Positions 38,829-51,554 of a DNA stretch of 64,000 nucleotides are shown one piece after another. Numbering within the stretch: the stretch's first letter is position 1; every line of letters begins with the position of its first letter. Made by a program: the position numbers and the translations under genes. A model generated the notes under the pieces. That model was not told the DNA's origin and did not search any database. It worked only from the letters and a program-made list of their open reading frames with translations. The DNA comes from an uncultured delta proteobacterium (GTDB lineage Bacteria > Desulfobacterota > Binatia > UBA9968). The stretch is from NCBI GenBank assembly GCA_963737905.1, contig CAVTUQ010000007.1, positions 288,001 through 352,000 on the forward strand, read 5' to 3'.

Positions 38829-39974
38829 ATGGAAGATGCAAAATTTTTCTCGGCGGATTCTCACGTCAACGAGCCCCCTGAAGCTTGGGAGAGAATACCT
38901 AAACAGTTGCGTGAACACGGGCCCCATTTTGTCCAGGATCCGCCAGGCAAGAAAGGTCTTTACATGGTTTTTGATGGTCATGAGCCCGATCCCGTCGGCA
39001 TGACATTTACCGCCGGTCAAGACAAAGCCGGCGGAGGCATTCGTAAAGTGATCGAAACCTTCAAGTGGGAAGACTGGCGCGGTCCGTGGGATCCAGCGGC
39101 ACGCATCGCCGACATGGATTTGGACGGCGTCAAGATGGAAGTTCTTTATCCGAGCATGGCGCGTAACTTTTACAGCCTCAAAGGCGAAGAGATTCCGCTA
39201 CAGAAAGCCGGCTTGGTTGCCTACAATGACTGGATGCGCGATTACTGCGCCGCCGCGCCTAAGCGGCTTATCGGTTTAGGCTTGCTCTCCGCATTAGATG
39301 TCGATTGGTCGTTGGAAGAGATGAAGCGGTGCGCCAAGCTGGGACTGAAGGGTGTTGTCTTACCATCGCAATTGCCGGACGGCATCAGTTATGCGGATCC
39401 TAGTTTTGATCCGCTGTGGACGGCTGCGCAGGATATGGATTTCCCGCTGCACTTCCATATCAACATCATCCAGGGAAGAGACCGGATGGCGGCACGGCTC
39501 AAAGTGATTACTAAACTTCAACAAGGGCGGAACGCGGTGCGCCGCGGCATCCTAGAGCCTTTGAATCTGCTCACTGATCTGGTGTTCGGTGGGGTGCTCG
39601 AACGTTTTCCGCGACTGCGCTTCGTCCTCGCGGAATATGACGTTTCCTGGCTGCATCCGTTCATCAGTAAAATGGACGGTACGCTACAGAGGGCCCGTTC
39701 CGAATCGCCGGACTCGCCCACCGTTGCCGCGCTCCCCAGCGAGTGTATTCGACGCCAGGTTTATATCACTTTTCAGGAAGATCGAGTCGGGGTGTTGGGA
39801 GCGGAGGTTTTCAACATGATCGATAACTACATGTGGGCGAGCGATTATCCGCACGGCGGCTCGACATGGCCGCGCTCTAAAGACGCCGTTGCGAGGCAAT
39901 TCAAAGGCGTTCCGGAACCGATCGAACGGAAGCTAACGTGGGATAACGCCGCCAAATTTTATGGCGTTCAATAA
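38829..39974 (+). CDS. Amidohydrolase-2 family protein
   Basis: Own RBS (AAGGAGG) before ATG 38829; SADSH, AYNDW, WASDYPH. Confidence 0.88.
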   Translation: MEDAKFFSADSHVNEPPEAWERIPKQLREHGPHFVQDPPGKKGLYMVFDGHEPDPVGMTFTAGQDKAGGGIRKVIETFKWEDWRGPWDPAARIADMDLDGVKMEVLYPSMARNFYSLKGEEIPLQKAGLVAYNDWMRDYCAAAPKRLIGLGLLSALDVDWSLEEMKRCAKLGLKGVVLPSQLPDGISYADPSFDPLWTAAQDMDFPLHFHINIIQGRDRMAARLKVITKLQQGRNAVRRGILEPLNLLTDLVFGGVLERFPRLRFVLAEYDVSWLHPFISKMDGTLQRARSESPDSPTVAALPSECIRRQVYITFQEDRVGVLGAEVFNMIDNYMWASDYPHGGSTWPRSKDAVARQFKGVPEPIERKLTWDNAAKFYGVQ

Positions 39975-40999
39975 TTGCTTTTTGGGTCTTCTCCTTATTT
40001 TCCTTGGCCCAGTGCCGCCGCTTTACGCGGTTCAGGTTGTTCAAAAAAGCGCTCCGCCGATTCTCAATAAGATTCGGATAAGCCAGTCCGCGGTGAACAC
40101 CAGATCGGCGGTTCTTTGGATTGCGCAGGGTCAAGGTTTTTTTGCTAAAAACGGCCTCGACGTTGAAACGATTTACTTGCGCAGCAGCAACCTACAAATG
40201 GCGGCGATGGCCACCGGAGATGTTCAGATCGGCAGCAGCGGCGGCGCGCCCGTTCTTTCCGCGGTGTCGGGAGGACAAGATTTAAAAATCGTGGCAACTC
40301 CAGGCAATCGCCTGGCTTACGATATTGTGGTCCGGCCGGAGATCAAGGAACCGAAGGATCTTCGTAATAAGCGGTTCGGGGTGACGAATATCGGTGGCAC
40401 AACCTGGATGGCGGCCTTGCTTGCCTTGGAGCATATGGGCCTAGATCAGCGCCGGGATCAGATCAAGATCAATGCCATTGGCAATCAGACGATTCTTGCC
40501 CAAGCGATCGAGGCCGGGACCATCGATGCGACCCTGCTTGATCCGTTTCTAAGCCGGCGACTGAAGCAGAAGGGGTTGCCAACCCTTGTAGAGCTTTACC
40601 GCGCAGGAGATCCCATTCGTTAATACCAGTGTCGTCGTCAATGGTGCGTTCTTGAAGCAGCGTGCCGACGCCGTCGAGAATGTACTCAAGTCGCTTATCG
40701 AGGCCCAGGCTTTTATCGCTTCGCCCAATAACAAAGCTGCCGTCATTAAGACCGTGATGCAGCATATGCAAATTACGGATCCCGCTATGGCGGAAGAAGG
40801 GTATCAAGATTTGCTCTTCGGTATTGAGAGAAAGCCCTATCCTTCTGCCGATTCCTTGCGCAATGTCCAGCGGATCATGGCATTGCTGAATCCAAAAGTC
40901 GGCAGTGTCAAAGTCGAAGAAATCATCGACAGCCGTTTTATTCGAAAATTGGATGAAACCGGCTTTATCGATGGCGCTTACTCGGGAAGCAAAAGGTAG
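39961..40999 (+). CDS. NitT/TauT ABC substrate-binding protein (frameshift near 40605)
   Basis: ORFs 39961 and 40652 join; GFFAKNGLDVE, FIRKLDETGFID. Confidence 0.82.
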
Positions 41000-43023: not shown

Positions 43024-44394
43024 ATGGACAGCATCACACGCAAAATAGCCGAGTACTCTTCTGGCGCAAGGTTAGACGACCTGACCGATGAGAGCGTGCA
43101 TGCCGCGACGCAGCGGCTGATCGATTCTCTTGGCTGTGCGGTCGGGGCTTATGACTGTGAGCCGGCGCAGATCGGCAGGCGATTGGCAGCCGGTCAAGTC
43201 CCGGGCAAGTATCCGGGCTACGTTCTCTGTTTCGGGGACCGGTTGCCGGCGGAGGCTGCAACCTTTATCAATTCGGCGATGATTCGGAATTTCGATTTCA
43301 ACGACCGCTATCCGGGAGGACATCCGAGCGACTGCCTGGGTGCGCTGCTGGCGCTGGCGGGCGCCATGAACGTGGACGGCAAACGCTTTCTTTCGAGCAT
43401 GATCGTCGTATATGAAATTTTTGCCCGGTTGAGCGACGCGACGACGCTTAGCCGGCGCGGATGGGATCAAGGTTACGCGATCGGCATAGCCACAGCGGCG
43501 GGAGTATGTAACCTGTTGAAGCTTTCCATCGATACTACGGCACACGCCGTGGGCATTGCCGCTGCTTCTAATCTTCCGCTCCGCGTCACTCGATCGGGAG
43601 AGCTCACCGCTTGGAAAAATGTCGCTACCGCTTATGCCGCGCGCAATGGATTGTTCGCTGCCTTGCTCGCCGCCGAAGGTATGCCAGGACCGGGCAACGC
43701 TTTTGACGGAAGGAACGGTCTTTGGGAAAAAGTCACCGGCCCATTTGAATTGGCGCCGTTCCCTAACGAGGGCGGTGCGTACCTGACGCGGAGAGTTCAA
43801 CTGAAATATTTGCCCATCGAAACCAATGGACAAGCCGCCGTGTGGGCGGCTCTAGAGCTGCGGTCGAAGGTCAAACCGAGCGAGCTCAAAGAGATTGAAG
43901 TTCTCACTTCCAAGTTTACGTGGTTCGAAATCGGCAGCGAGCCTGAGAAATGGGACCCCCAGACACGCGAGACAGCAGACCACAGCCTTCCCTACATTTT
44001 TGCCAGAGCCCTGGTTGACGGACCGATCCGCATTAGTTCCTTCAATGACGAAGCGGTCCGCGATGCTTCGCTTAGGCCGCTTATGGCAAAAATCAAAGTT
44101 ATTCCGGACGAGCCTATCGAAGCTTTGTTGCCTGAGAAAACCGTGATCAGAGTCATGGCGACTACGATTGATGAAGCGCGCCATTCCGTCGAAATTGTTA
44201 ACCCGCTGGGCCACCCCGAGAATCCGATGCAGGATCGGCATATCGAAGAAAAGTTTATCGCGCTCGTCGAACCGGTCCTCGGGCAAAAGCGCTGCCGGAC
44301 CGCGCTCGACCGCTGGTGGCGAGTCCGAGACGTGGGGGATATGAGCCAACTCATTCAAACCCTCGACCTAGAAACCGTAGAGCGCAATACCTGA
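43024..44394 (+). CDS. MmgE/PrpD family protein (2-methylcitrate dehydratase-like)
   Basis: DSLGC, DFND, GHPSD, RSGELTAWK, RETADHSLPY, GHPENP. Confidence 0.9.
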   Translation: MDSITRKIAEYSSGARLDDLTDESVHAATQRLIDSLGCAVGAYDCEPAQIGRRLAAGQVPGKYPGYVLCFGDRLPAEAATFINSAMIRNFDFNDRYPGGHPSDCLGALLALAGAMNVDGKRFLSSMIVVYEIFARLSDATTLSRRGWDQGYAIGIATAAGVCNLLKLSIDTTAHAVGIAAASNLPLRVTRSGELTAWKNVATAYAARNGLFAALLAAEGMPGPGNAFDGRNGLWEKVTGPFELAPFPNEGGAYLTRRVQLKYLPIETNGQAAVWAALELRSKVKPSELKEIEVLTSKFTWFEIGSEPEKWDPQTRETADHSLPYIFARALVDGPIRISSFNDEAVRDASLRPLMAKIKVIPDEPIEALLPEKTVIRVMATTIDEARHSVEIVNPLGHPENPMQDRHIEEKFIALVEPVLGQKRCRTALDRWWRVRDVGDMSQLIQTLDLETVERNT

Positions 44395-44460
44395 TCCTCA
44401 CGCGCGCACACTTTCAGTCAAAAGCTGATTGGTTTTCGTGAGTCCCAAGAGATCTAGGTC

Positions 44461-45684
44461 GTGAGCCGGCTTTCTTACTCCTATCACGTTCCTCTAGCCG
44501 TACCTTATTGGAACGGGGCAACTTATAGAGGTGTCCTTCGATCGTTCTTATCGGGACGGATTGTTAACGGGCCGGATCTTACCCAGCTGAGAACTGCCGT
44601 GCTCAAAAGACTCGGCGTCGAAGACGCGCTCCTCTGCGGGTCGGGAAGTTTGGCCCTCGAAATTGCTTTGCGGGCATCCGGTGTTGGCAAGGGCGACGAA
44701 GTGGTGATTCCCACCTTTTGTTGCACCAGTGTCGTACCGCCCATTTTAGCCGTTGGCGCGCATCCCGTTCTGGCGGACGTCGGCGAGGAGCTAAACATCA
44801 CCCCTAAGACAGTCGAATTGACACTCACCGAGAAAACCAAAGCCATTATCGTCCCGCACCTTTTTGGCAACCCAGCGGACATCAACGCGATCGTAGAATT
44901 CGTTCGCGGCCGGAACATTCGGGTCATCGACGATGCCGCTCAGGCTTTGGGCGCGACCATCGATGGCCGGCCGGTGGGCGGCTTCGGCGACGCGGGGATT
45001 TTGAGTTTCGGCAGTGAAAAGATTTGTTTTGGTCTTGGTGGGGGCGTGCTCGTTTCTGGAAAGAAGGGATTTCTTAACGGCAGTTCGAATATTGACTTGC
45101 CACCAGCCCGGCCTTTCCCTACGCTGTGGGGTTTTTTTTCGACTGTTACTTGGCGACGTTGGCGGCGCTGGACGCTTCCCGCGCAGGCGTGGTTGTCCCA
45201 TGCGGAGACCATCGGTCCCGAGTCGCCCCCGAATCCATATCGGCAAGAGATTTTATCTAATCTCAACGCCGCAGTGGCCTTGAGTCTCATGCAAACACTG
45301 GACGAGAACATCGCCGCGCGCCGCGCGCGCGTCAGAGCCTATCAGGAGTTGCTCGGTGCCGAGAAACGCTTATCTCTCATATCGCATCGATCGGGATCGG
45401 CGTGCCTGACCCAGGTTATTCGTGTCTTCCCTCAACGCTGCGGCGATGATCTGTCCGGGCATCTCATCGGGACACTCCGCCGCGCGGGTTACGAAGTTCA
45501 AGGAAGCTATGTTCCGATCCATCTTCTCTCTTCCTATGAACCATGGGTGCGCGAACGTCTTCCGCATACGGAACGAGTCTGGAGCGATTTGATCGAGCTC
45601 CCTTGTGAGCCTGGCGTGAGCTTCGCACACGTAGAGCGGATCGCTGCCATCGTTAAGCAGGTTCTCGGGCGCCAGTGCTCGTAG
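44461..45684 (+). CDS. DegT/DnrJ/EryC1/StrS family PLP-dependent aminotransferase
   Basis: GDEVVIP, PHLFG, IDDAAQALG, SFGSEK..GGG. Confidence 0.85.
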   Translation: MSRLSYSYHVPLAVPYWNGATYRGVLRSFLSGRIVNGPDLTQLRTAVLKRLGVEDALLCGSGSLALEIALRASGVGKGDEVVIPTFCCTSVVPPILAVGAHPVLADVGEELNITPKTVELTLTEKTKAIIVPHLFGNPADINAIVEFVRGRNIRVIDDAAQALGATIDGRPVGGFGDAGILSFGSEKICFGLGGGVLVSGKKGFLNGSSNIDLPPARPFPTLWGFFSTVTWRRWRRWTLPAQAWLSHAETIGPESPPNPYRQEILSNLNAAVALSLMQTLDENIAARRARVRAYQELLGAEKRLSLISHRSGSACLTQVIRVFPQRCGDDLSGHLIGTLRRAGYEVQGSYVPIHLLSSYEPWVRERLPHTERVWSDLIELPCEPGVSFAHVERIAAIVKQVLGRQCS

Positions 45685-45922
45685 ACGGAACCCGCACAGC
45701 TTGACTTCGAAGACTCCTCTTCCGATTTTACGCCCAGCTACCTTCGGTTGGCGAAGTTCGCGGCTTTGGCCTTTTCTATCGTTTTTCCATGTGCTAAAAA
45801 TTCAGAAGATGTGAGCCATTGCCTTTCGACGGATTCGGAATCTATCGTGAGTCCGAATCTCGCCGGAGCATTCATAGTCGACTTCAGTCGCTGTGACATC
45901 TTCGATCACTTGCCTTTGAGTA

Positions 45923-46228
45923 TTGAAACTTCCATTCCAAGCCCGGAAAAAAATCAAGCACAAAGCAGGTCTGTTGATTTTTTGCCTTTGTGTTTTTGGT
46001 TGCGGTAAACAGAGCGCCCACTTGAAATGGGAAGATACCAGCGACACCGAAGCAGGATTTAGAATTTATAGGATTACAGCTAAGGATACGACAAAGATCG
46101 ACGAGGTGGGGCCCAACGTCACTAACTATGTCGATAAAGACGCGCCTCCAGGAGCTTGTTATGCGGTGAGCGCTTTTAATTCCGCTGGAGAGTCTTCTCC
46201 CTCCAATACGGCGTGTCTCGCGGACTAA
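45923..46228 (+). CDS. Small putative lipoprotein with a fibronectin type III-like domain
   Basis: Hydrophobic stretch + VFGC; LKWEDTSDTEAGFRIYR...YAVSAFNSAGES. Confidence 0.65.
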   Translation: MKLPFQARKKIKHKAGLLIFCLCVFGCGKQSAHLKWEDTSDTEAGFRIYRITAKDTTKIDEVGPNVTNYVDKDAPPGACYAVSAFNSAGESSPSNTACLAD

Positions 46229-46339
46229 CACCGGCTGTTATCACGACAGCGGTCAATAGAAAACAATTGTCTTATGTGATAGGGGTACGAGAATCCCACC
46301 GGGGGTTGTTTTGCAGAGTTTCCAGCGGGAGAAAAGCTT

Positions 46340-47080
46340 ATGGGAATTTCAAGCGAGCAGTTCGTTAAAGAGATTCAGCAAATGGTGCGAAGAAAGCACT
46401 CCAAGGACCATCCGATCATCGGCCTGATCGAGGACGGCAAGCTGGACCGGGGACAACTGAAAGGGTTTGTCGGGCAGTTCTATCTTTTTTTTCCGAAACC
46501 GTTTCCCAAGCCCATCGCGGCTATGCTGAGCCGGTGTCCGGATGATCCGGAACTCGAGAAGATGTGGATCGAGAATGTGGTGGAGGAGGGGACAGGGGAG
46601 ATCACGGGCACCGATAGTCACAAAGGACTGTTCATTCGTTTCGCGAACGCCTGCGGATACGGTAAGGAGGAATTGGACCGGGTGGAACCCTTGCCGGAGA
46701 CCGAAGCGTTTTTGGACTGGCGTGAGTTACTCATGTACCAACGCTCCTGGTTGGAGCTCTACGCATGCCAAGGATTTTGTCTCGAGGGTACCGCCAACGA
46801 ACGGATGACGCGCATCGTGAACGGGCTGACGAAATATTACGGATTCGATCGCAACTCGGAAGATATCCGTTATTGGACCTTGCATATGGGAGTGGACGAA
46901 GAGCACATGAAAGTCGGGCCACTGGCGGTGGAGCGATATGCGGTAACGGAGCCGCAACAAGCCCAAGTCCGGGCGTCCGTGCAGAAGACACTGGACCAGT
47001 TTTGGCTGGCATTTGACGGAATCAAGCGCGCGTTTGTCGACAAAGATCCACTCTACGCCAGGTGGCGCAACGGAAACTAA
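46340..47080 (+). CDS. Heme-oxygenase-like diiron (TenA/PqqC/CADD-like) protein
   Basis: HP, ENVVEE..G....SH, LE, YWTLH..VDEEH. Confidence 0.85.
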   Translation: MGISSEQFVKEIQQMVRRKHSKDHPIIGLIEDGKLDRGQLKGFVGQFYLFFPKPFPKPIAAMLSRCPDDPELEKMWIENVVEEGTGEITGTDSHKGLFIRFANACGYGKEELDRVEPLPETEAFLDWRELLMYQRSWLELYACQGFCLEGTANERMTRIVNGLTKYYGFDRNSEDIRYWTLHMGVDEEHMKVGPLAVERYAVTEPQQAQVRASVQKTLDQFWLAFDGIKRAFVDKDPLYARWRNGN

Positions 47081-47093
47081 GGAGGATTTTTCC

Positions 47094-47750
47094 ATGGAAA
47101 TGGTTGATCTCTCGCGGGTGATCTATGACGGAATGCCAAAGATCCCGATTCTTCCTGAAGTTCATGTGCAGAAGTTTTTAAGCTTGGAAAAGGGTCATCC
47201 TTTAAATGTAACCGAGCTTTCTTTGCCTTGCCACGCGGGGACTCACGTCGATGCGCCGATTCACATCGTGCCCAACGGCAAATCCATCGAAGAGCTGCCG
47301 CTCGATGCTTTTGTCGGGACGGGCGCGGTCATCGGCGTGAAAAAGAAGGGCGGGGAAGAGGTCACGGCCAAGGATCTGGAGAGTTCAGGCGTGCCGGTCA
47401 ATCGCGGTGACATTCTGATGCTCTATACCGGTTGGGACGAAAAGTTCGATAGCCCGGACTACAACCTGCATCCCTACCTCTCCGTAGATGCCGCGGAATG
47501 GATGGTCAAAAAAGGGATCAAGATGTTCGGCATCGACTGCATTACGGTTGACCTTCCGACGCCGCTTCGGCCGAAGGGATTTGATTTCCCGGTTCACCGA
47601 ATGTTACTGGGGAACAATGTGCTGATCGCCGAAAACGTAACCAACTTGAGCAGTATAGTCGGCAAGAGGACCAGAATCCTGGCCCTGCCTCTGCGCGTGA
47701 AGGGCAGCGATGCCGGCCATGCCAGGATTGTGGCGGAGGTATTGAACTAA
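47094..47750 (+). CDS. Cyclase family (kynurenine formamidase-like) metallohydrolase
   Basis: HAGTHVDAPIH, GID, H..LL, EN; AAGGAGG RBS. Confidence 0.9.
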   Translation: MEMVDLSRVIYDGMPKIPILPEVHVQKFLSLEKGHPLNVTELSLPCHAGTHVDAPIHIVPNGKSIEELPLDAFVGTGAVIGVKKKGGEEVTAKDLESSGVPVNRGDILMLYTGWDEKFDSPDYNLHPYLSVDAAEWMVKKGIKMFGIDCITVDLPTPLRPKGFDFPVHRMLLGNNVLIAENVTNLSSIVGKRTRILALPLRVKGSDAGHARIVAEVLN

Positions 47751-47754
47751 CATC

Positions 47755-48723
47755 ATGGCGCTGACTAAACCCATCAAAGGCATTATCGGAGCTTGCCTTA
47801 CACCGTTCGACGAGAACGATCGGATAAATTACCAGGCGTTGGAGAAAGAAATTGATTTCATCGTTTCTGATTGCGACGCCATCACCATTGCCGCGGTAGA
47901 AGCGGCCGAATATACCATGTTGTCCCGCGATGAGCGGAAGGAAATACTGCGCATTGCCACTGAAATGGTCAACAAGCGCGTGCCGGTCATTCTTGGTTGC
48001 TCGAGCCCGTCTCCTAGAGAGGTCATCGAATTGGCGGAATACTCTGCGAAGGTGGGCGGGGATCTGGTGCAAGTCCTGATGCCGCTTCGGCCCTGGGGAG
48101 GCCAGCCGACGATCGCCGAGTTGATGGAATTCTATACTCAAGTCGCCTCCGCAAGCCCGCTGCCGGTGACCTGTTACCACAACCCGGGACCCGGCGCAGA
48201 TCCGCCGCAGGATGCCTTCGTCAAGATCAGCGAAATCGACAATATTCGTTACTTTAAGGAAAGCTCGCGGGATATTACAAAAATATCCAGATTGATTGAA
48301 CAAATCGATTTAGCCGGACGTGGCTATTATTTTACGACGATGCAACCTCTACTGGTGACTCTGATGCTCGGTGGGTCGGGTGCGACGATGCCGCCGCCGG
48401 GGACCAGAATCGGCGCGCAGATTGTCAGAGCCTTCAGGGCAGGGGATCTCGATACGGCACGCTTCTGGGCGCGCTGCTATGCGCTATTTCCGGGAAAATG
48501 GGCAGCCTACGGTTTACCGCCTGTGATGAAATCGGCGATGAAACATTTTGGTATCGACATCGGAAATCCGTGCCGGCCTTATGCCCCCGTTAGCCCCCGT
48601 GACCATGCACAGATCGGGCAATTTCTCCAACAAGTGGGTCTCATTGGCGAAGCGGGACCGACACCTCAAGCATTGTTGGATGCGGGTGAGAAGCTTCGCC
48701 AGGAAGATACCTTCCTTCGTTAG
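47755..48723 (+). CDS. Dihydrodipicolinate synthase family aldolase/lyase
   Basis: LTPF, ERKEIL, RVPVILG, YHNP, FKES. Confidence 0.85.
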   Translation: MALTKPIKGIIGACLTPFDENDRINYQALEKEIDFIVSDCDAITIAAVEAAEYTMLSRDERKEILRIATEMVNKRVPVILGCSSPSPREVIELAEYSAKVGGDLVQVLMPLRPWGGQPTIAELMEFYTQVASASPLPVTCYHNPGPGADPPQDAFVKISEIDNIRYFKESSRDITKISRLIEQIDLAGRGYYFTTMQPLLVTLMLGGSGATMPPPGTRIGAQIVRAFRAGDLDTARFWARCYALFPGKWAAYGLPPVMKSAMKHFGIDIGNPCRPYAPVSPRDHAQIGQFLQQVGLIGEAGPTPQALLDAGEKLRQEDTFLR

Positions 48724-48967
48724 CGATTCGCAGCCGTCCTCCCGTTTTCGAAAACTGATTTATGGAATGGATTAAGCATCTTTCGGATAAACTATTAATT
48801 TGGTTTCTGCGCGTAACCTCGGGATTCGGCAAGGAGTTGACTCGCGACGGCAAACGGGAACAGACGGCTCTGGCGCGAACAACGGTTAAGAAACCTCAAA
48901 GGACTCGCGATTCGCTCACGCGAACGGTTCAGGGATAAGAGCACATCAGAGTCATAAATCAGCTGCC

Positions 48968-50125
48968 ATGTCTTTGCCTAACGGAAGGAAACGGATCGTT
49001 ATTCTCGGCGGCGGCTGCGGAGGCGTGGTCGCTGCTACCCATTTGGGCCGGAAACTTGGCGCCGATCACGATGTTATTCTCATCGATCGCCGGGCGGACC
49101 ATATTTTTATGCCGGCGTTCCTCTTCGTCATGCTTGGCGAGCGTCAACCCTGGGATATCAGCCGGAGCCTGAGTCATCTGCAAAAGCGCAATGTCAAAGT
49201 CATACAATCGGAGATACGAGGCATCGATCCAACCAGGCAGGAAGTTTCTCTGGAAAAAGAGAAGGTTAGTTACGATTACCTCATCGTCTCTCTAGGATTG
49301 CAGACGAGGCCGGATCTTGTGCCGGGATTTGCCGAAGCATCAATCCATCCCTGGGAGATGGACTCGGCCGTGCGTCTGCGCGATACATTGACAAGCTTTC
49401 GCGGCGGCCGGATTGTGGTTGGGGTTCCGTTGGGGCCATATCGATGCCCGCCAGCGCCTTACGAAACGCAGTGGATGCTCGACGGATATTTTCGCCAACG
49501 GGGCATTCGTGAGCGAGTCGAGATCGAATATTTCACGCGAGATCCGGAGCCGACCGGCGAGGCCCACGACCCGGTCGTCTGGATGGATACCGAGAGCAAG
49601 CGGCGCAACATAAAGCAAAATTACGAATTCGTGGTCCGAGGCATCGATCCGGAAAAGAAAATCGTAAAGGGTCTCTACAACTATAACCTGTCATACGACC
49701 TGCTGGTCATGGTGCCGCCGCACCGGCCGGCGCAGGTACTCCTCGACAGCGGGCTTGCGGAGACTGAGACCGGCATCCGCGTCGATTACGATACGCTGAA
49801 GACCAAATGGGAAAACGTTTACGCTATCGGTGACTGCGCGGACATGCCGGCTTCAAAGGCCGGCGGTGTGGCACACCAAGAGGCGGATGTACTGGCCCAT
49901 AACCTGGCTGTCGAAATCACCGGAAAAGGCAGGCCCGTCGATCTCTGGCTTCACACCATATGACTGCTCGCTTACGGCGCAGGTCGCGCCGCTGCAAATC
50001 GAACTGTTTATCCCACCGGCTGGCCGCCATTTGGCGTCACTGAACCGCGCACCTGGGGACCCTCGCGGCTTATCTATTGGGCAAAGATTGGTTTCGAGAA
50101 GTGGTGGCTGTGGCGGTATTTTTAA
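48968..50125 (+). CDS. Sulfide:quinone oxidoreductase-like FAD-dependent oxidoreductase, probable selenoprotein (UGA at 49961-49963)
   Basis: ILGGG.GG, RCPPAPYE, YAIGD, KAG..A; frame continues 53 codons past TGA to WAKIGFEKWWLWRYF-TAA; SECIS-like hairpin. Confidence 0.85.
49975..49991 (+). promoter_or_regulatory. Putative bacterial SECIS stem-loop
   Basis: CGGCGC-AGGTC-GCGCCG, a perfect 6-bp stem separated from the in-frame UGA by 11 nt, with G at loop position 2. Confidence 0.65.
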
Positions 50126-50237
50126 TCATCCCACTTCTTCAGGGACACCAGTTGCGCCCCTTTGATCATCAATTTAAAAAAACCTTGTGGGAGGGGAGAA
50201 AAGTCGCAGGATTTATTAAAAAAGAGCTATTTACAAA

Positions 50238-50265
50238 AGTTGACATAATATATCTTATCAGACGT
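50238..50265 (-). other. dif: XerCD dif-like recombination site
   Basis: Minus strand ACGTCTGATAA-GATATA-TTATGTCAACT; 11-6-11 architecture; XerD arm differs at 2 of 11 positions from E. coli TTATGTTAAAT; intergenic and AT-rich. Confidence 0.85.
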
Positions 50266-50511
50266 TACGCTAGCGTAAGCGCCTGGACACAAATTTCGCC
50301 GTTCCAGCCAAACTTGAACGATCACTTCAAAATTTAGGCATCCGCTTTGAAATAGTCGAGCGCGTGAAAAAGCGCGACGACGACATCCCATCCACTCGCG
50401 ATCTACAAATCTTCAAATTAGAGCGCGAAGTCGCCGAGCTTAAAGACAATCGCAAAAACTTAAATTACAATCGGACTCTACCAGGGTCAGCGGGAATCTC
50501 AGACCGAGCTT

Positions 50512-50877
50512 AAAGCCATCGGTCTCGCCGTTGATGCGGGCACAGGTTTTGTACCAGTGGGCGGAGTGGTACGACAGTTTGCAAAAGGTGTTCAACGCGG
50601 AGCAGCAGCCGGCGAAGCCATGGCAGCAGCCAAGACAGCAGCGACGGCGGTCAAAGAAGCGACAGAGAAGAATGCTGACACGTTGATTCAAGATGCCATT
50701 GCGAAGGGGATGAAGACTGAAGGCGTTAAGTTCCCGATGCGGTGGAAAGATATTCCTGTAGATGTAGCAGAAGAGTTTGCGAAAACGGCCATCTATCCTG
50801 CTGGGTTGTCAGCAAGCGGATAAAGCAAAAATCCTTGCGACCCGTAGTAAAGCAGGTCCAGTAGAAAGCATTATTCA
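50512..50877 (+). repeat. Direct repeat copy 1 (gene fragment of unknown function)
   Basis: Near-identical to 58998-59351. Confidence 0.9.
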
Positions 50878-51152
50878 ACAACCGCAAAAACTGACGCCGC
50901 GAGAAGAGTTCACCAGAGCAGGTCGATTCATTACCGATGAGCCGGACTACGAACCGCCTTGCCACTACCCTTTACGTCGTAGGATTGAAATATACGACGC
51001 TTCAGCGCAATTTGGGTTCAAACCCCGCGGGGCATTCCAATTGTTTTAAATTCAGACTGAATCACTACCCGCAGTCCCGCTCGTCGCAAAAGCGCCGGAC
51101 CTCATGGCTGCGCATTCTTCAGGTGCCTAACGTTACTTCACATAAAAGCAGG

Positions 51153-51554
51153 CTACGACGTGCGGCCCCAAGCCTGCGCCTCAATCTTCCAGACGCCATC
51201 GTGATTGGCGAACGTGTACGCAAGGGTACCTGTGCGAACGACGGACTGGCCCTTGATCGTGACAGCGAGAGTCCCTGATATGACTGCATAGGCGGACGAG
51301 CCCTCGACATTCCAGAAGCCCATCTCGTAGGAGAGGTGCTCGTGGGTCACGCCAAGGTCCTCACGCCATTTCGCTACGTCAGCAAGCCAATTGGCCGGAG
51401 CATTTGGGTTCAACCAGCGATAGGGCGCAATGCCGTCGATGATGATCGCGGTGTCCCCGAAAACGCTGAGGAAAAGATCGCTGTCTTGGGTGTTGAAGCC
51501 GTTGATGTGGGCGTCGATTAGAGTCTGGATTCCACCCGGTGGGTTGCTCGTCAT
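51153..51554 (-). CDS. NTF2/SnoaL-like protein
   Basis: GGAGG RBS; FN..D...F...F...A.IID..APY.W; WKIEAQAW. Confidence 0.8.
   Translation of the reverse strand: MTSNPPGGIQTLIDAHINGFNTQDSDLFLSVFGDTAIIIDGIAPYRWLNPNAPANWLADVAKWREDLGVTHEHLSYEMGFWNVEGSSAYAVISGTLAVTIKGQSVVRTGTLAYTFANHDGVWKIEAQAWGRTS

What the first reader, a model, noticed from the sequence alone, without database searches (positions are those of the whole stretch)
48968..50125. Probable selenocysteine-containing sulfide:quinone oxidoreductase-like enzyme
Seen: the ORF track stops at ...WLHTI-TGA (49961), but the frame continues LLAYGAGRAAANRTVYPTGWPPFGVTEPRTWGPSRLIYWAKIGFEKWWLWRYF-TAA, and a perfect hairpin CGGCGC-AGGTC-GCGCCG follows the UGA after an 11-nt spacer. 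Known: SQR/FCSD enzymes use two redox Cys, one in CPxAP (present as RCPPAPYE) and one shortly after the KxG..A helix, where this UGA falls; W.K..FEK.W is the family's C-terminal helix; the 11-nt spacing and loop G match the E. coli fdhF-type SECIS. No other Cys is present in that region. Inference: a Cys/Sec redox pair. I do not recall SQR among the classical selenoprotein families, but this needs a search.
Basis: partly seen in the sequence, partly recalled or inferred. Interest (0 to 1): 0.88.

Follow-up and report, generated by a model that had tools for sequence, protein, structure and literature searches.

The report
Selenocysteine-containing sulfide:quinone reductase homologue
The gene is a real selenoprotein: a sulfide:quinone-reductase-like flavoenzyme whose second catalytic cysteine is replaced by selenocysteine, a kind predicted in 2025 in another lineage, found here in a separate clade that databases cut short at the UGA.

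Summary
The frame starting at 48968 meets TGA at 49961-63 and stays open to TAA at 50123-25. A 6-bp G+C hairpin starts 11 nt after the TGA.

I read the TGA as selenocysteine (about 0.93).
- It is TGA in 51 of 51 related genome loci and 80 of 80 metagenome loci.
- The 53 codons after it evolve as coding sequence.
- The three lowest synonymous-site entropies among 109 conserved codons are the three hairpin-stem codons.
- The column is Cys in 98 of 116 distant full-length homologues.
- selA, selB and a UGA-containing selD are in the genome. tRNA-Sec is missing from this 87%-complete MAG but present in 4 of 4 related genomes.
- U332 and Cys160 align with the two active-site cysteines of human SQOR. 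The predicted fold matches SQR structures (TM 0.82-0.86).

It is not a new kind. A selenocysteine SQR with the same HxxU motif was predicted in 2025 and is curated as NCBIfam NF049943. This protein scores 261 bits against a cut-off of 525 and forms a separate clade, about 35% identical.

Extras: a conserved gene cassette, an unannotated ~60-aa ORF that is fused to the enzyme in one lineage, and an invariant AUA codon before the UGA. Sulfide:quinone activity is inferred (about 0.6).

The parts
48968..49960 (+). SQR-like flavoprotein CDS, codons 1-331. It holds the FAD-binding GGGCGG motif (residues 14-19) and the redox Cys160 in RCPPAPYE (TGC at 49445-47).
   Evidence: Pfam Pyr_redox_2 and FCSD_central. 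Human SQOR E 6e-34. Residues 1-385 match in 59 genome loci.
49958..49960 (+). Ile331 codon, invariant AUA, immediately 5' of the UGA.
   Evidence: ATA in 44 of 44 sequences and 80 of 80 metagenome loci. ATA is 13 of 352 at the eight other conserved Ile codons. The reason is unexplained.
49961..49963 (+). UGA read as selenocysteine (U332), in the motif H-T-I-U. It aligns with the second active-site Cys of SQRs.
   Evidence: TGA in 51 of 51 and 80 of 80 loci. Cys in 98 of 116 distant homologues and in P0010. It aligns to the Cys of 'TSCPL' in human SQOR. It is followed by C in 80 of 80 loci.
49964..50125 (+). CDS continuation, codons 333-385, then TAA (50123-25). It includes the predicted C-terminal helix 367-384 (50066-50119), rich in Trp, Phe and Lys.
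   Evidence: Entropy 0.28/0.20/1.21 bits at codon positions 1/2/3. DNA collinearity with four related genomes ends at the TAA, not at the TGA. AF2 helix 367-384. The ...GFEKWWLWR.F motif is shared with Cys homologues.
49975..49991 (+). Bacterial SECIS-type hairpin: 6-bp stem CGGCGC/GCGCCG, 5-nt loop N-G-G-N-C, starting 11 nt after the UGA (17 nt from the UGA to the loop).
   Evidence: -11.1 kcal/mol. 306 of 306 pair cells paired, with only G-U-compatible changes. Stem codons 337, 340 and 341 have the three lowest third-position entropies of 109 codons. It meets the four bSECIS model criteria quoted in PMC13188914, section 5.
48762..48938 (+). Conserved unannotated small ORF between the DHDPS-like gene and the SQR gene (58 aa here, 58-77 aa in the 42 loci where it closes as a separate ORF, mostly 60-68). 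The window's copy has one extra base near 48863-65, which shifts the frame after codon 34.
   Evidence: tblastn finds it in 44 of 59 loci. ATG is at the aligned start in 33 of 44. Entropy is 0.74/0.57/1.43. Alignment A3 shows the window's C-terminal half diverging. Metagenome contigs lack one base at 48863/48865 (table 4). It is fused in frame to the SQR in L066. No Pfam or NCBIfam family matches.
46340..48723 (+). Conserved upstream cassette: a haem-oxygenase-like/CADD-like iron enzyme (46340-47080), a cyclase/arylformamidase-like protein (47013-47750) and a DHDPS-family protein (47755-48723).
   Evidence: Pfam PF14518, PF04199, PF00701. NCBIfam. Found upstream of the SQR gene in 38, 45 and 51 of 59 loci, with only 3 kb of flank available. 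The collinear block in four related genomes runs from 46326 to 50125.

Best explanation
The gene 48968-50125 encodes a 385-residue, FAD-dependent, SQR-type flavoprotein. Codon 332 (UGA) is decoded as selenocysteine.

Shown by sequence and comparison: the UGA, the reading frame beyond it, and a G+C hairpin 11 nt downstream are all conserved. The hairpin is kept at the RNA level, because synonymous sites in its stem are frozen.

Inferred mechanism of decoding: SelB carrying Sec-tRNA(Sec) binds this hairpin as the ribosome reaches the UGA and inserts Sec instead of terminating. Ribosomes that fail to do so release a 331-residue fragment that lacks two beta-strands and the C-terminal helix.

Inferred chemistry, by homology with human SQOR. 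Cys160 corresponds to the FAD-proximal cysteine, and U332 to the solvent-exposed cysteine that carries the outgoing persulfide and then resolves the flavin adduct. A selenolate should be both the better leaving group and the better nucleophile in those two steps. Electrons would pass from FADH2 to a membrane quinone, with the aromatic and basic C-terminal helix as a monotopic anchor.

My odds are about 0.93 that the UGA is Sec, and about 0.6 that the physiological reaction is sulfide (or persulfide) oxidation coupled to quinone reduction.
For: UGA conservation:
- TGA in 51 of 51 genome loci and 80 of 80 metagenome loci.
- One TGA in the best match of 29 of 29 related genomes that have the gene, out of 31 searched, G000 included (two of them, G310 and G315, are unpublished).
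- 119 of the 120 best database homologues are 328-334 aa, that is, cut at this codon.

Coding beyond the UGA:
- Entropy 0.28/0.20/1.21 bits at codon positions 1/2/3 over codons 333-385.
- The terminal stop is at codon 386 in every full-length locus.
- The collinear DNA block ends at the TAA.

Sec/Cys pair:
- Cys in P0010, 73% identical.
- Cys in 98 of 116 distant representatives.
- TGT in L079.

SECIS:
- The hairpin meets the published bSECIS criteria.
- Stem third positions have 0.16 bits against a median of 1.59. They are the three lowest of 109.
- 306 of 306 pair cells are paired.
- 79 of 80 metagenome stems are fully paired.
- The 46%-identical L074 keeps a TGA followed by a hairpin in a shifted register, made by different synonymous choices.

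Machinery:
- selA, selB, and selD with UGA at its 'AAG-U-AAK' site.
- tRNA-Sec in 4 of 4 related genomes.
- TGA is otherwise the commonest terminator of long frames: 285 TGA, 196 TAG, 190 TAA.

Enzyme:
- Alignment of C160 and U332 with the two cysteines of human SQOR; mechanism from PMC11039317.
- AF2 pLDDT 94.5; Foldseek TM 0.82-0.86 to SQR and FCSD structures.
- In L074 the Sec homologue sits divergently beside a metallo-beta-lactamase-rhodanese fusion, the usual persulfide dioxygenase partner of SQR.

Precedent: NF049943 has the same HxxU motif and the same column.
Against: - No tRNA-Sec gene is in this assembly. The MAG is 87% complete.
- Folding energy of the 40- and 76-nt stretches is no better than shuffles.
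- Within the clade no stem pair shows a change on both sides (0 of 6), and the shuffle control there is uninformative.
- No DNA of a Cys-form member of this clade was recovered. I could not test whether the synonymous constraint relaxes when the UGA is absent.
- No RNA, protein or selenium data exist.
- For the sulfide:quinone function: no persulfide dioxygenase, rhodanese, TusA or DsrE gene is next to the gene in this lineage. Instead there is a conserved cassette of unrelated enzymes. The genome gave only a weak metallo-beta-lactamase hit to the L074 neighbour.
- The protein scores 261 bits, below the 525-bit cut-off of NF049943.
Confidence: 0.85

Rival explanations
1. It is a selenoprotein, but not a sulfide:quinone oxidoreductase in vivo. 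The Cys/Sec-FAD module would serve the conserved cassette (haem-oxygenase-like iron enzyme, cyclase/arylformamidase-like protein, DHDPS-like protein, ~60-aa protein). It might act on an organic thiol, persulfide or selenium compound, or use a different electron acceptor.
For: The cassette lies upstream in nearly every locus with enough flank. The DHDPS-like gene and the small ORF are still there in the Acidobacteriota-labelled loci L066 and L080, at 59-68% identity. The small ORF is fused to the enzyme in L066. No classical sulfur-oxidation partner is adjacent. Type III SQRs are described as the least understood group (PMC10205796, passages).
Against: Most loci belong to one order, in which the gene is nearly universal, so the synteny may only reflect common descent. 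The 46%-identical Sec homologue L074 lacks the cassette and sits beside a persulfide-dioxygenase-like rhodanese fusion. All catalytic features of SQRs are kept.
Confidence: 0.25
2. The TGA is an ordinary stop. The product is a 331-residue protein, and the conserved sequence behind it is something else (a separate small gene or a regulatory element).
For: Public gene calls end at the TGA. tRNA-Sec is not in this assembly. TGA is a common stop in this genome.
Against: The 53 codons after the TGA show a coding pattern in the same frame and are more conserved than the rest of the protein (amino-acid entropy 0.37 against 0.65). They are continuous with the body in Cys homologues. In the model they form two beta-strands and the terminal helix of the fold. 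No start codon follows the TGA.
Confidence: 0.02
3. The UGA is read through by a near-cognate tRNA (Trp or Cys), or the organism reassigns UGA, with no selenium involved.
For: The base after the UGA is always C (80 of 80). From recall, that is a weak termination context.
Against: TGA terminates more long frames than TAA or TAG do. A complete selA-selB-selD set is present, and selD itself has a UGA. The hairpin is under RNA-level constraint at the place a SECIS is expected. A Trp at a catalytic Cys column would inactivate the enzyme, and TGC/TGT would be the simple way to encode Cys.
Confidence: 0.03
4. Sequencing or assembly error, or a pseudogene.
For: The MAG has 6.7% estimated contamination. 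The neighbouring small ORF carries a likely single-base error or mutation.
Against: The same TGA occurs in 131 independently assembled loci, and the frame is intact on both sides.
Confidence: 0.005

Closest known systems
[quoted passage not shown] It corresponds to the NAD(P)/FAD-dependent oxidoreductase selenoprotein predicted by deep-Sep in Desulfosediminicola ganghwensis and D. flagellatus (Xiao and Zhang 2025, PMC12013277; listed with motif HxxU in PMC13188914).
   Same: Same superfamily. The Sec is in the same alignment column: P0175 ends exactly one residue before it, and L091 reads ...DGHAT-U-IVV.... Same HxxU motif. A hairpin follows the UGA. Cys forms occur in the same clade (P0159, 627 bits).
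   Different: About 35% identity. This protein scores 261 bits against a 525 cut-off. It forms a separate clade with support 100. Its tail after the Sec is shorter (53 against about 75 residues). Its SECIS differs: 6 bp with a 5-nt loop 17 nt from the UGA, against an 8-bp stem with a GGUC loop about 28 nt away in L091. It has a different gene neighbourhood and a different host lineage. Public gene calls still show it as a truncated 331-aa protein.
Human SQOR (type II SQR; PDB 6oi5, 6oi6, 8dhk), with its Cys201-S-S-S-Cys379 trisulfide.
   Same: Best solved-structure match by sequence (E 6e-34) and a close fold match (TM 0.82). C160 and U332 align with its two active-site cysteines. The roles of the two cysteines are taken from PMC11039317 (passages).
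   Different: 24-25% identity. Sec replaces the solvent-side cysteine. The protein is bacterial, shorter, and has no mitochondrial context. Whether a seleno-trisulfide forms here is unknown. The residue numbers 201 and 379 for the aligned cysteines are my assignment from the paper and recall. The alignment itself uses chain numbering.
Characterised Cys-type type III SQRs (Caldivirga maquilingensis; Methylacidiphilum fumariolicum MFUM_v2_0219).
   Same: NF049943 is the best family match, so this is the nearest SQR type. They are monotopic membrane flavoproteins that reduce quinones with sulfide (PMC10205796 and PMC9666304, passages).
   Different: They use Cys. The M. fumariolicum gene is in an operon with TusA and DsrE2 homologues, which is not the case here. 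I could not fetch their sequences, so no direct comparison or tree with typed SQR references was made. The Lencina papers are not held.
Bacterial SECIS consensus (Zhang and Gladyshev model, as quoted in PMC13188914, section 5) and the E. coli fdhF element.
   Same: Loop of 3-9 nt (here 5). Stem of 4-16 bp (here 6). G in the first two loop positions, followed by G or U (here N-G-G). 16-37 nt from the UGA to the loop (here 17). MFE at or below -7.5 kcal/mol (here -11.1).
   Different: There is no sequence similarity to the fdhF element beyond the loop GGU motif. The 11-nt rule for fdhF is recalled, not checked. No bSECIS search program or Rfam family was available (Rfam: 0 matches).

Membership tests
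Bacterial selenoprotein (SelB/SECIS-dependent UGA decoding) | In-frame UGA conserved among orthologues, with coding sequence conserved beyond it | tested here: met
   TGA in 51 of 51 and 80 of 80 loci. Coding entropy pattern after the UGA.
Bacterial selenoprotein (SelB/SECIS-dependent UGA decoding) | Cys in homologues at the same column | tested here: met
   P0010. 98 of 116 representatives. L079 has TGT.
Bacterial selenoprotein (SelB/SECIS-dependent UGA decoding) | Stem-loop after the UGA that fits the bSECIS model | tested here: met
   All four criteria met. RNA-level constraint on the stem. No dedicated bSECIS program was run.
Bacterial selenoprotein (SelB/SECIS-dependent UGA decoding) | selA, selB and selD in the genome | tested here: met
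   607, 410 and 381 bits, adjacent on contig C29.
Bacterial selenoprotein (SelB/SECIS-dependent UGA decoding) | tRNA-Sec (selC) in the genome | tested here: inconclusive
   Not found in this 87%-complete MAG. Found at 74-78 bits in 4 of 4 related genomes that carry the gene.
Bacterial selenoprotein (SelB/SECIS-dependent UGA decoding) | Selenium in the protein | not testable with these tools
   Needs 75Se labelling or mass spectrometry.
NF049943 (type III SQR, selenoprotein subtype) | Score at or above the curated cut-off of 525 bits | tested here: not met
   261 bits. True members score 657 bits. A truncated member scores 525.3.
NF049943 (type III SQR, selenoprotein subtype) | Sec in the HxxU motif at the second redox-Cys column | tested here: met
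   H-T-I-U here. H-A-T-U in L091. Same column.
Sulfide:quinone oxidoreductase (SQR/FCSD flavoprotein fold) | FAD-binding Rossmann domain with GxGxxG | tested here: met
   Pyr_redox_2 7.9e-20. G14, G16, G18 and G19 are invariant or nearly so.
Sulfide:quinone oxidoreductase (SQR/FCSD flavoprotein fold) | Two redox-active Cys positions flanking the flavin | tested here: met
   C160 and U332 align with the two cysteines of human SQOR. Both columns are at least 90% conserved.
Sulfide:quinone oxidoreductase (SQR/FCSD flavoprotein fold) | Overall fold | tested here: met
   pLDDT 94.5. TM 0.84 (3hyv), 0.82 (human), 0.85-0.86 (A. ferrooxidans; FCSD 5n1t).
Sulfide:quinone oxidoreductase (SQR/FCSD flavoprotein fold) | C-terminal amphipathic helix or helices for membrane and quinone binding | tested here: inconclusive
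   One predicted helix, 367-384, rich in aromatic and basic residues. It is shorter than in solved SQRs.
Sulfide:quinone oxidoreductase (SQR/FCSD flavoprotein fold) | Sulfide-dependent quinone reduction | not testable with these tools
   Enzyme assay needed.
SQR type III (Marcia classification) | Placement with typed reference sequences in a tree | not tested
Only the NF049943 best hit points to type III.

The most novel reading that the evidence does not exclude
The Sec enzyme is not a stand-alone sulfide detoxifier. It would be the redox subunit of an undescribed five-gene module: a haem-oxygenase-like iron enzyme, a cyclase-like hydrolase, a DHDPS-like aldolase, a novel ~60-residue protein and the Sec flavoprotein. 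The small protein would be a physical partner of the enzyme, since it is fused to it in one Acidobacteriota-labelled locus. The module would process an organic sulfur or selenium metabolite in a widespread soil lineage. The invariant AUA-UGA-C context would be a lineage-specific determinant of Sec insertion.
Probability: 0.18. Interest if true: 0.6.

Novelty: new member of a known kind. Interest (0 to 1): 0.38.

Why it matters
First, annotation. In the gene calls I saw, this near-universal gene of a common soil lineage is cut at the UGA. 119 of the 120 best database homologues are 328-334 aa, and those named by NCBI are called only 'FAD/NAD(P)-binding oxidoreductase'. NCBI's selenoprotein model does not reach it (261 bits against a 525 cut-off). 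A second model or a lower cut-off would correct hundreds of records.

Second, evolution. Sequences that end exactly at this column, or carry a TGA there, fall in several separate clades of the family. The tree forces at least 4 changes of state. This redox cysteine therefore seems a recurrent site of Cys/Sec exchange, which makes it a natural comparison for what selenium buys in persulfide chemistry.

Third, biochemistry. In human SQOR the corresponding cysteine carries the outgoing persulfide and then resolves the flavin adduct (PMC11039317). A natural Sec variant would allow a test of which step limits SQR turnover.

It does not open a new category. The same replacement was predicted in 2025.

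Tried and rejected
Tried without result:
- Rfam scan of 45500-51500 at E up to 1: no match.
- Promoter and terminator scan of 48500-50700: one weak promoter-like site downstream, no terminator. Uninformative.
- Covariation test on the hairpin: all columns are nearly invariant, so the shuffle control says nothing.
- Search for DNA of a Cys-form member of this clade (P0010), as a control for the synonymous constraint. The one metagenome scan returned 80 loci, all with TGA, so the control could not be made.
- Sequencing runs: no RNA holder listed.
- Contigs of X1, X2 and X9 span the UGA and X3 does not. Parts without cover in those runs are not interpreted.
- Aragorn at lowered thresholds gave only noise. 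One 75-nt 'SeC' call on C30 at the 90% threshold was not followed up.
- PrpD-like and DegT-like genes upstream (43024-45684) are not part of the conserved block.
- A persulfide-dioxygenase-rhodanese query from L074 found only a weak metallo-beta-lactamase match in the own genome.
- Papers not held: Lencina 2013 and 2020, and Haft and Tolstoy 2025.
- Supplements are closed. Table S2 of deep-Sep, which lists details and perhaps TGA-containing homologues in other bacteria, was not seen. It could show that members of this clade were already noted.
- A claim that this clade is not in print rests only on searches and on the two papers read.

Considered and rejected: global UGA reassignment, a separate downstream gene, and assembly error.
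Full report
OBSERVATION. The ORF 48968..49963 (+) ends in TGA at 49961-63. After an 11-nt spacer comes CGGCGC-AGGTC-GCGCCG (49975-49991). On its own this folds at -11.1 kcal/mol (z -2.29, with 5 of 200 shuffles as good). The 40-nt and 76-nt stretches around it are no more stable than shuffles (z -0.70 and +1.29). Thermodynamics alone would therefore not carry the claim.

THE UGA AND THE FRAME BEHIND IT ARE CONSERVED. Of the 120 best homologues among 5.8 billion proteins, 119 are 328-334 aa, that is, cut at this codon. One, P0010 (385 aa, 73% identical), has Cys there. A scan of species genomes gave 59 loci.
- In the 51 loci that cover codon 332 without an indel, the codon is TGA in 51 of 51, and the terminal stop is at codon 386.
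- Of the other eight, L060, L068, L080 and L083 do not reach the codon, and L065 and L067 have a broken frame or an N run.
- L074 (46% identical) has TGA at the homologous place. L079 (30% identical) has TGT.
- Eighty metagenome loci all have TGA.
- Among 31 genomes of the own genus, family and order (G000 included), 29 have the gene, each with one TGA. G310 and G315 are unpublished; without them the count is 27 of 29.
- Over 44 ungapped sequences, entropy at codon positions 1/2/3 is 0.28/0.20/1.21 bits after the UGA and 0.50/0.27/1.35 before it. The tail is therefore translated and is the better conserved part.
- DNA collinearity with four related genomes ends at the TAA, not at the TGA.
- TGA is otherwise the commonest terminator of long frames in this genome: 285 TGA, 196 TAG, 190 TAA in the first 12 contigs.

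THE HAIRPIN IS CONSTRAINED AS RNA.
- The stem is made of the third base of codon 336, codon 337, the first two bases of codon 338, the last two bases of codon 340, codon 341, and the first base of codon 342.
- Among 109 conserved codons for four- or six-fold degenerate amino acids, the three lowest third-position entropies in the whole gene are codons 337, 340 and 341 (0.16 bits; next lowest 0.31; median 1.59). The four-fold sites in the loop (338, 339) and just outside (335, 342) have 1.7-1.9 bits.
- All 306 pair cells in 51 distinct sequences are paired, and the seven changes are all G-U compatible. No pair changes on both sides, and the shuffle control is uninformative.
- In the metagenome set, 69 of 80 stems are perfect, 10 have one G-U pair and 1 has a mismatch.
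- L074 keeps a hairpin in a shifted register, built from different synonymous choices. The Cys-encoding L079 has an A+T-rich stretch with no obvious hairpin, which I judged by eye without folding it.
- The element meets the four criteria of the published bSECIS model: 5-nt loop, 6-bp stem, loop N-G-G, 17 nt from the UGA to the loop, and MFE at or below -7.5 (PMC13188914, section 5, read in full).
- An unexplained extra: the preceding Ile codon is ATA in 44 of 44 and 80 of 80 sequences, although ATA is 13 of 352 at the other conserved Ile codons. The next base is C in 80 of 80.

MACHINERY. selA (607 bits), selB (410 bits) and selD (381 bits, with a TGA at its 'AAG-U-AAK' site) lie together on contig C29. 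No tRNA-Sec was found in this 87%-complete MAG, either by Rfam RF01852 (whose best hits are tRNA-Leu and tRNA-Ser), by Aragorn, or by blastn with relatives' genes. Four of four related genomes that carry the gene have a 91-nt tRNA-Sec at 74-78 bits. In one it sits on a 1.8-kb contig, and the smallest contig here is 11.6 kb. I take the absence to be an effect of binning.

WHAT THE PROTEIN IS.
- Pfam finds Pyr_redox_2 and the FCSD central domain.
- The best solved relative by sequence is human SQOR (E 6e-34). C160 aligns with the Cys of its 'VKCAGAP' segment and U332 with the Cys of 'TSCPL'.
- Across 116 full-length representatives at 28-41% identity, these columns are Cys in 105 and 98 respectively.
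- An AlphaFold2 model built from 64 sequences has pLDDT 94.5 and pTM 0.93. Residues 329-347 and 361-366 form strands and 367-384 forms a helix.
- Foldseek ranks SQRs first: 3hyv TM 0.84, human 0.82, A. ferrooxidans 0.85-0.86, FCSD 5n1t 0.86.
- The genome holds no second close SQR-like gene.

WHAT IS ALREADY KNOWN.
- A 2026 review table lists that family with motif HxxU and credits deep-Sep (PMC13188914, passages; reference list).
- True members occur in the own phylum. Five of five genomes tested score 649-658 bits, four of them with one TGA inside the match.
- L091 reads ...DGHAT-U-IVV..., followed by an 8-bp hairpin with a GGUC loop.
- The truncated representative P0175 reaches 525.3 bits on model positions 1-330 and ends exactly one residue before the Cys column, as do P0123, P0168, P0188 and P0234: 5 of 130 aligned rows.
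- In a FastTree of 129 rows, the window protein groups with P0010 (Cys) and P0123 at support 100, far from the NF049943 clade. The 'ends at the column' label needs 6 changes, at least 4 of them forced by well-supported branches.
- This tree is a quick method and is unrooted. Apart from the own clade and NF049943, a TGA was not confirmed at the DNA level.
- So the Sec position and motif are those of the known family, but this is a separate clade that the curated model does not capture.

CONTEXT.
- Upstream lie a haem-oxygenase-like/CADD-like iron enzyme, a cyclase/arylformamidase-like protein and a DHDPS-family protein. They are found in 38, 45 and 51 of 59 loci, with only 3 kb of flank available.
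- Between the DHDPS-like gene and the enzyme is an unannotated ORF found in 44 loci. It has ATG at the aligned start in 33 of 44, a coding entropy pattern of 0.74/0.57/1.43, a length of 58-77 aa (mostly 60-68) in the 42 loci where it closes as a separate ORF, and no Pfam or NCBIfam family.
- In L066 this ORF is fused in frame to the enzyme.
- The window's copy has one extra base near 48863-65, which shifts its second half out of frame. Metagenome contigs lack that base.
- Because the gene is nearly universal in one order, synteny within that order is weak evidence of a functional link. The Acidobacteriota-labelled loci keep only the DHDPS-like gene and the small ORF.
- L074 has neither. There the gene sits divergently beside a metallo-beta-lactamase-rhodanese fusion, the usual persulfide dioxygenase partner of SQR.

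MECHANISM (inferred). SelB carrying Sec-tRNA binds the hairpin and inserts Sec at the UGA. In human SQOR, sulfide opens the Cys201-S-S-S-Cys379 trisulfide. The Cys379 persulfide hands its sulfur to an acceptor, and the Cys379 thiolate then attacks the flavin adduct to give FADH2, which reduces quinone (PMC11039317, passages). U332 takes the place of that cysteine. A selenolate would be the better leaving group and the better nucleophile in these steps (general selenium chemistry, recalled).

VERDICT. The finding is a new member of a known kind, with modest interest. Its value lies in correcting annotation, in recurrent Cys/Sec exchange at one catalytic site, and in the side observations (cassette, small ORF, AUA context).

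Noticed in passing
window 48762-48938 (+); L025-L082 at the equivalent place; L066 1948-3111: A conserved, unannotated ~60-aa ORF lies immediately upstream of the Sec enzyme in 44 loci. It matches no Pfam or NCBIfam family. In the Acidobacteriota-labelled locus L066 it is fused in frame to the enzyme's N-terminus.
   Followed up: partly
window 48863-48865: The window's copy of the small ORF has one extra base compared with 33 relatives and with contigs of four public runs. Its conserved second half is therefore out of frame. This is either an assembly error or a real frameshift.
   Followed up: partly
window 49958-49964: The codon before the UGA is ATA in 124 of 124 sequences examined, although ATA is rare at other Ile codons of the gene (13 of 352). 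The base after the UGA is C in 80 of 80 metagenome loci. I have no explanation for this.
   Followed up: partly
window 46340-48723 (+): A haem-oxygenase-like/CADD-like gene, a cyclase/arylformamidase-like gene and a DHDPS-like gene form a block with the Sec enzyme. The block is collinear in four related genomes from 46326 to 50125. Its pathway is unknown.
   Followed up: partly
G000 contig C29 71024-75669 (-): selA, selB and selD lie together. selD itself has an in-frame TGA at its N-terminal catalytic site, so it is a second selenoprotein of this genome.
   Followed up: partly
L074 738-2141 (-) and 2899 onward (+): In a Rubrobacteraceae-labelled MAG, a 46%-identical homologue also has TGA at this column. 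It sits divergently beside a metallo-beta-lactamase-rhodanese fusion (persulfide-dioxygenase-like).
   Followed up: partly
proteins P0168, P0188, P0234: Three further 50%-identity cluster representatives, outside this clade and outside NF049943, end exactly one residue before the Cys column. They may be additional Sec clades. No DNA was examined.
   Followed up: no
window 39961-40623 (+): An SsuA-family (aliphatic sulfonate/taurine) ABC substrate-binding protein homologue lies 8 kb upstream. It is not part of the conserved block.
   Followed up: no
window 50126-50936: About 800 nt downstream of the gene have no ORF of 100 aa or more and are not conserved in relatives. An A+T-rich stretch lies at about 50170-50260.
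   Followed up: no
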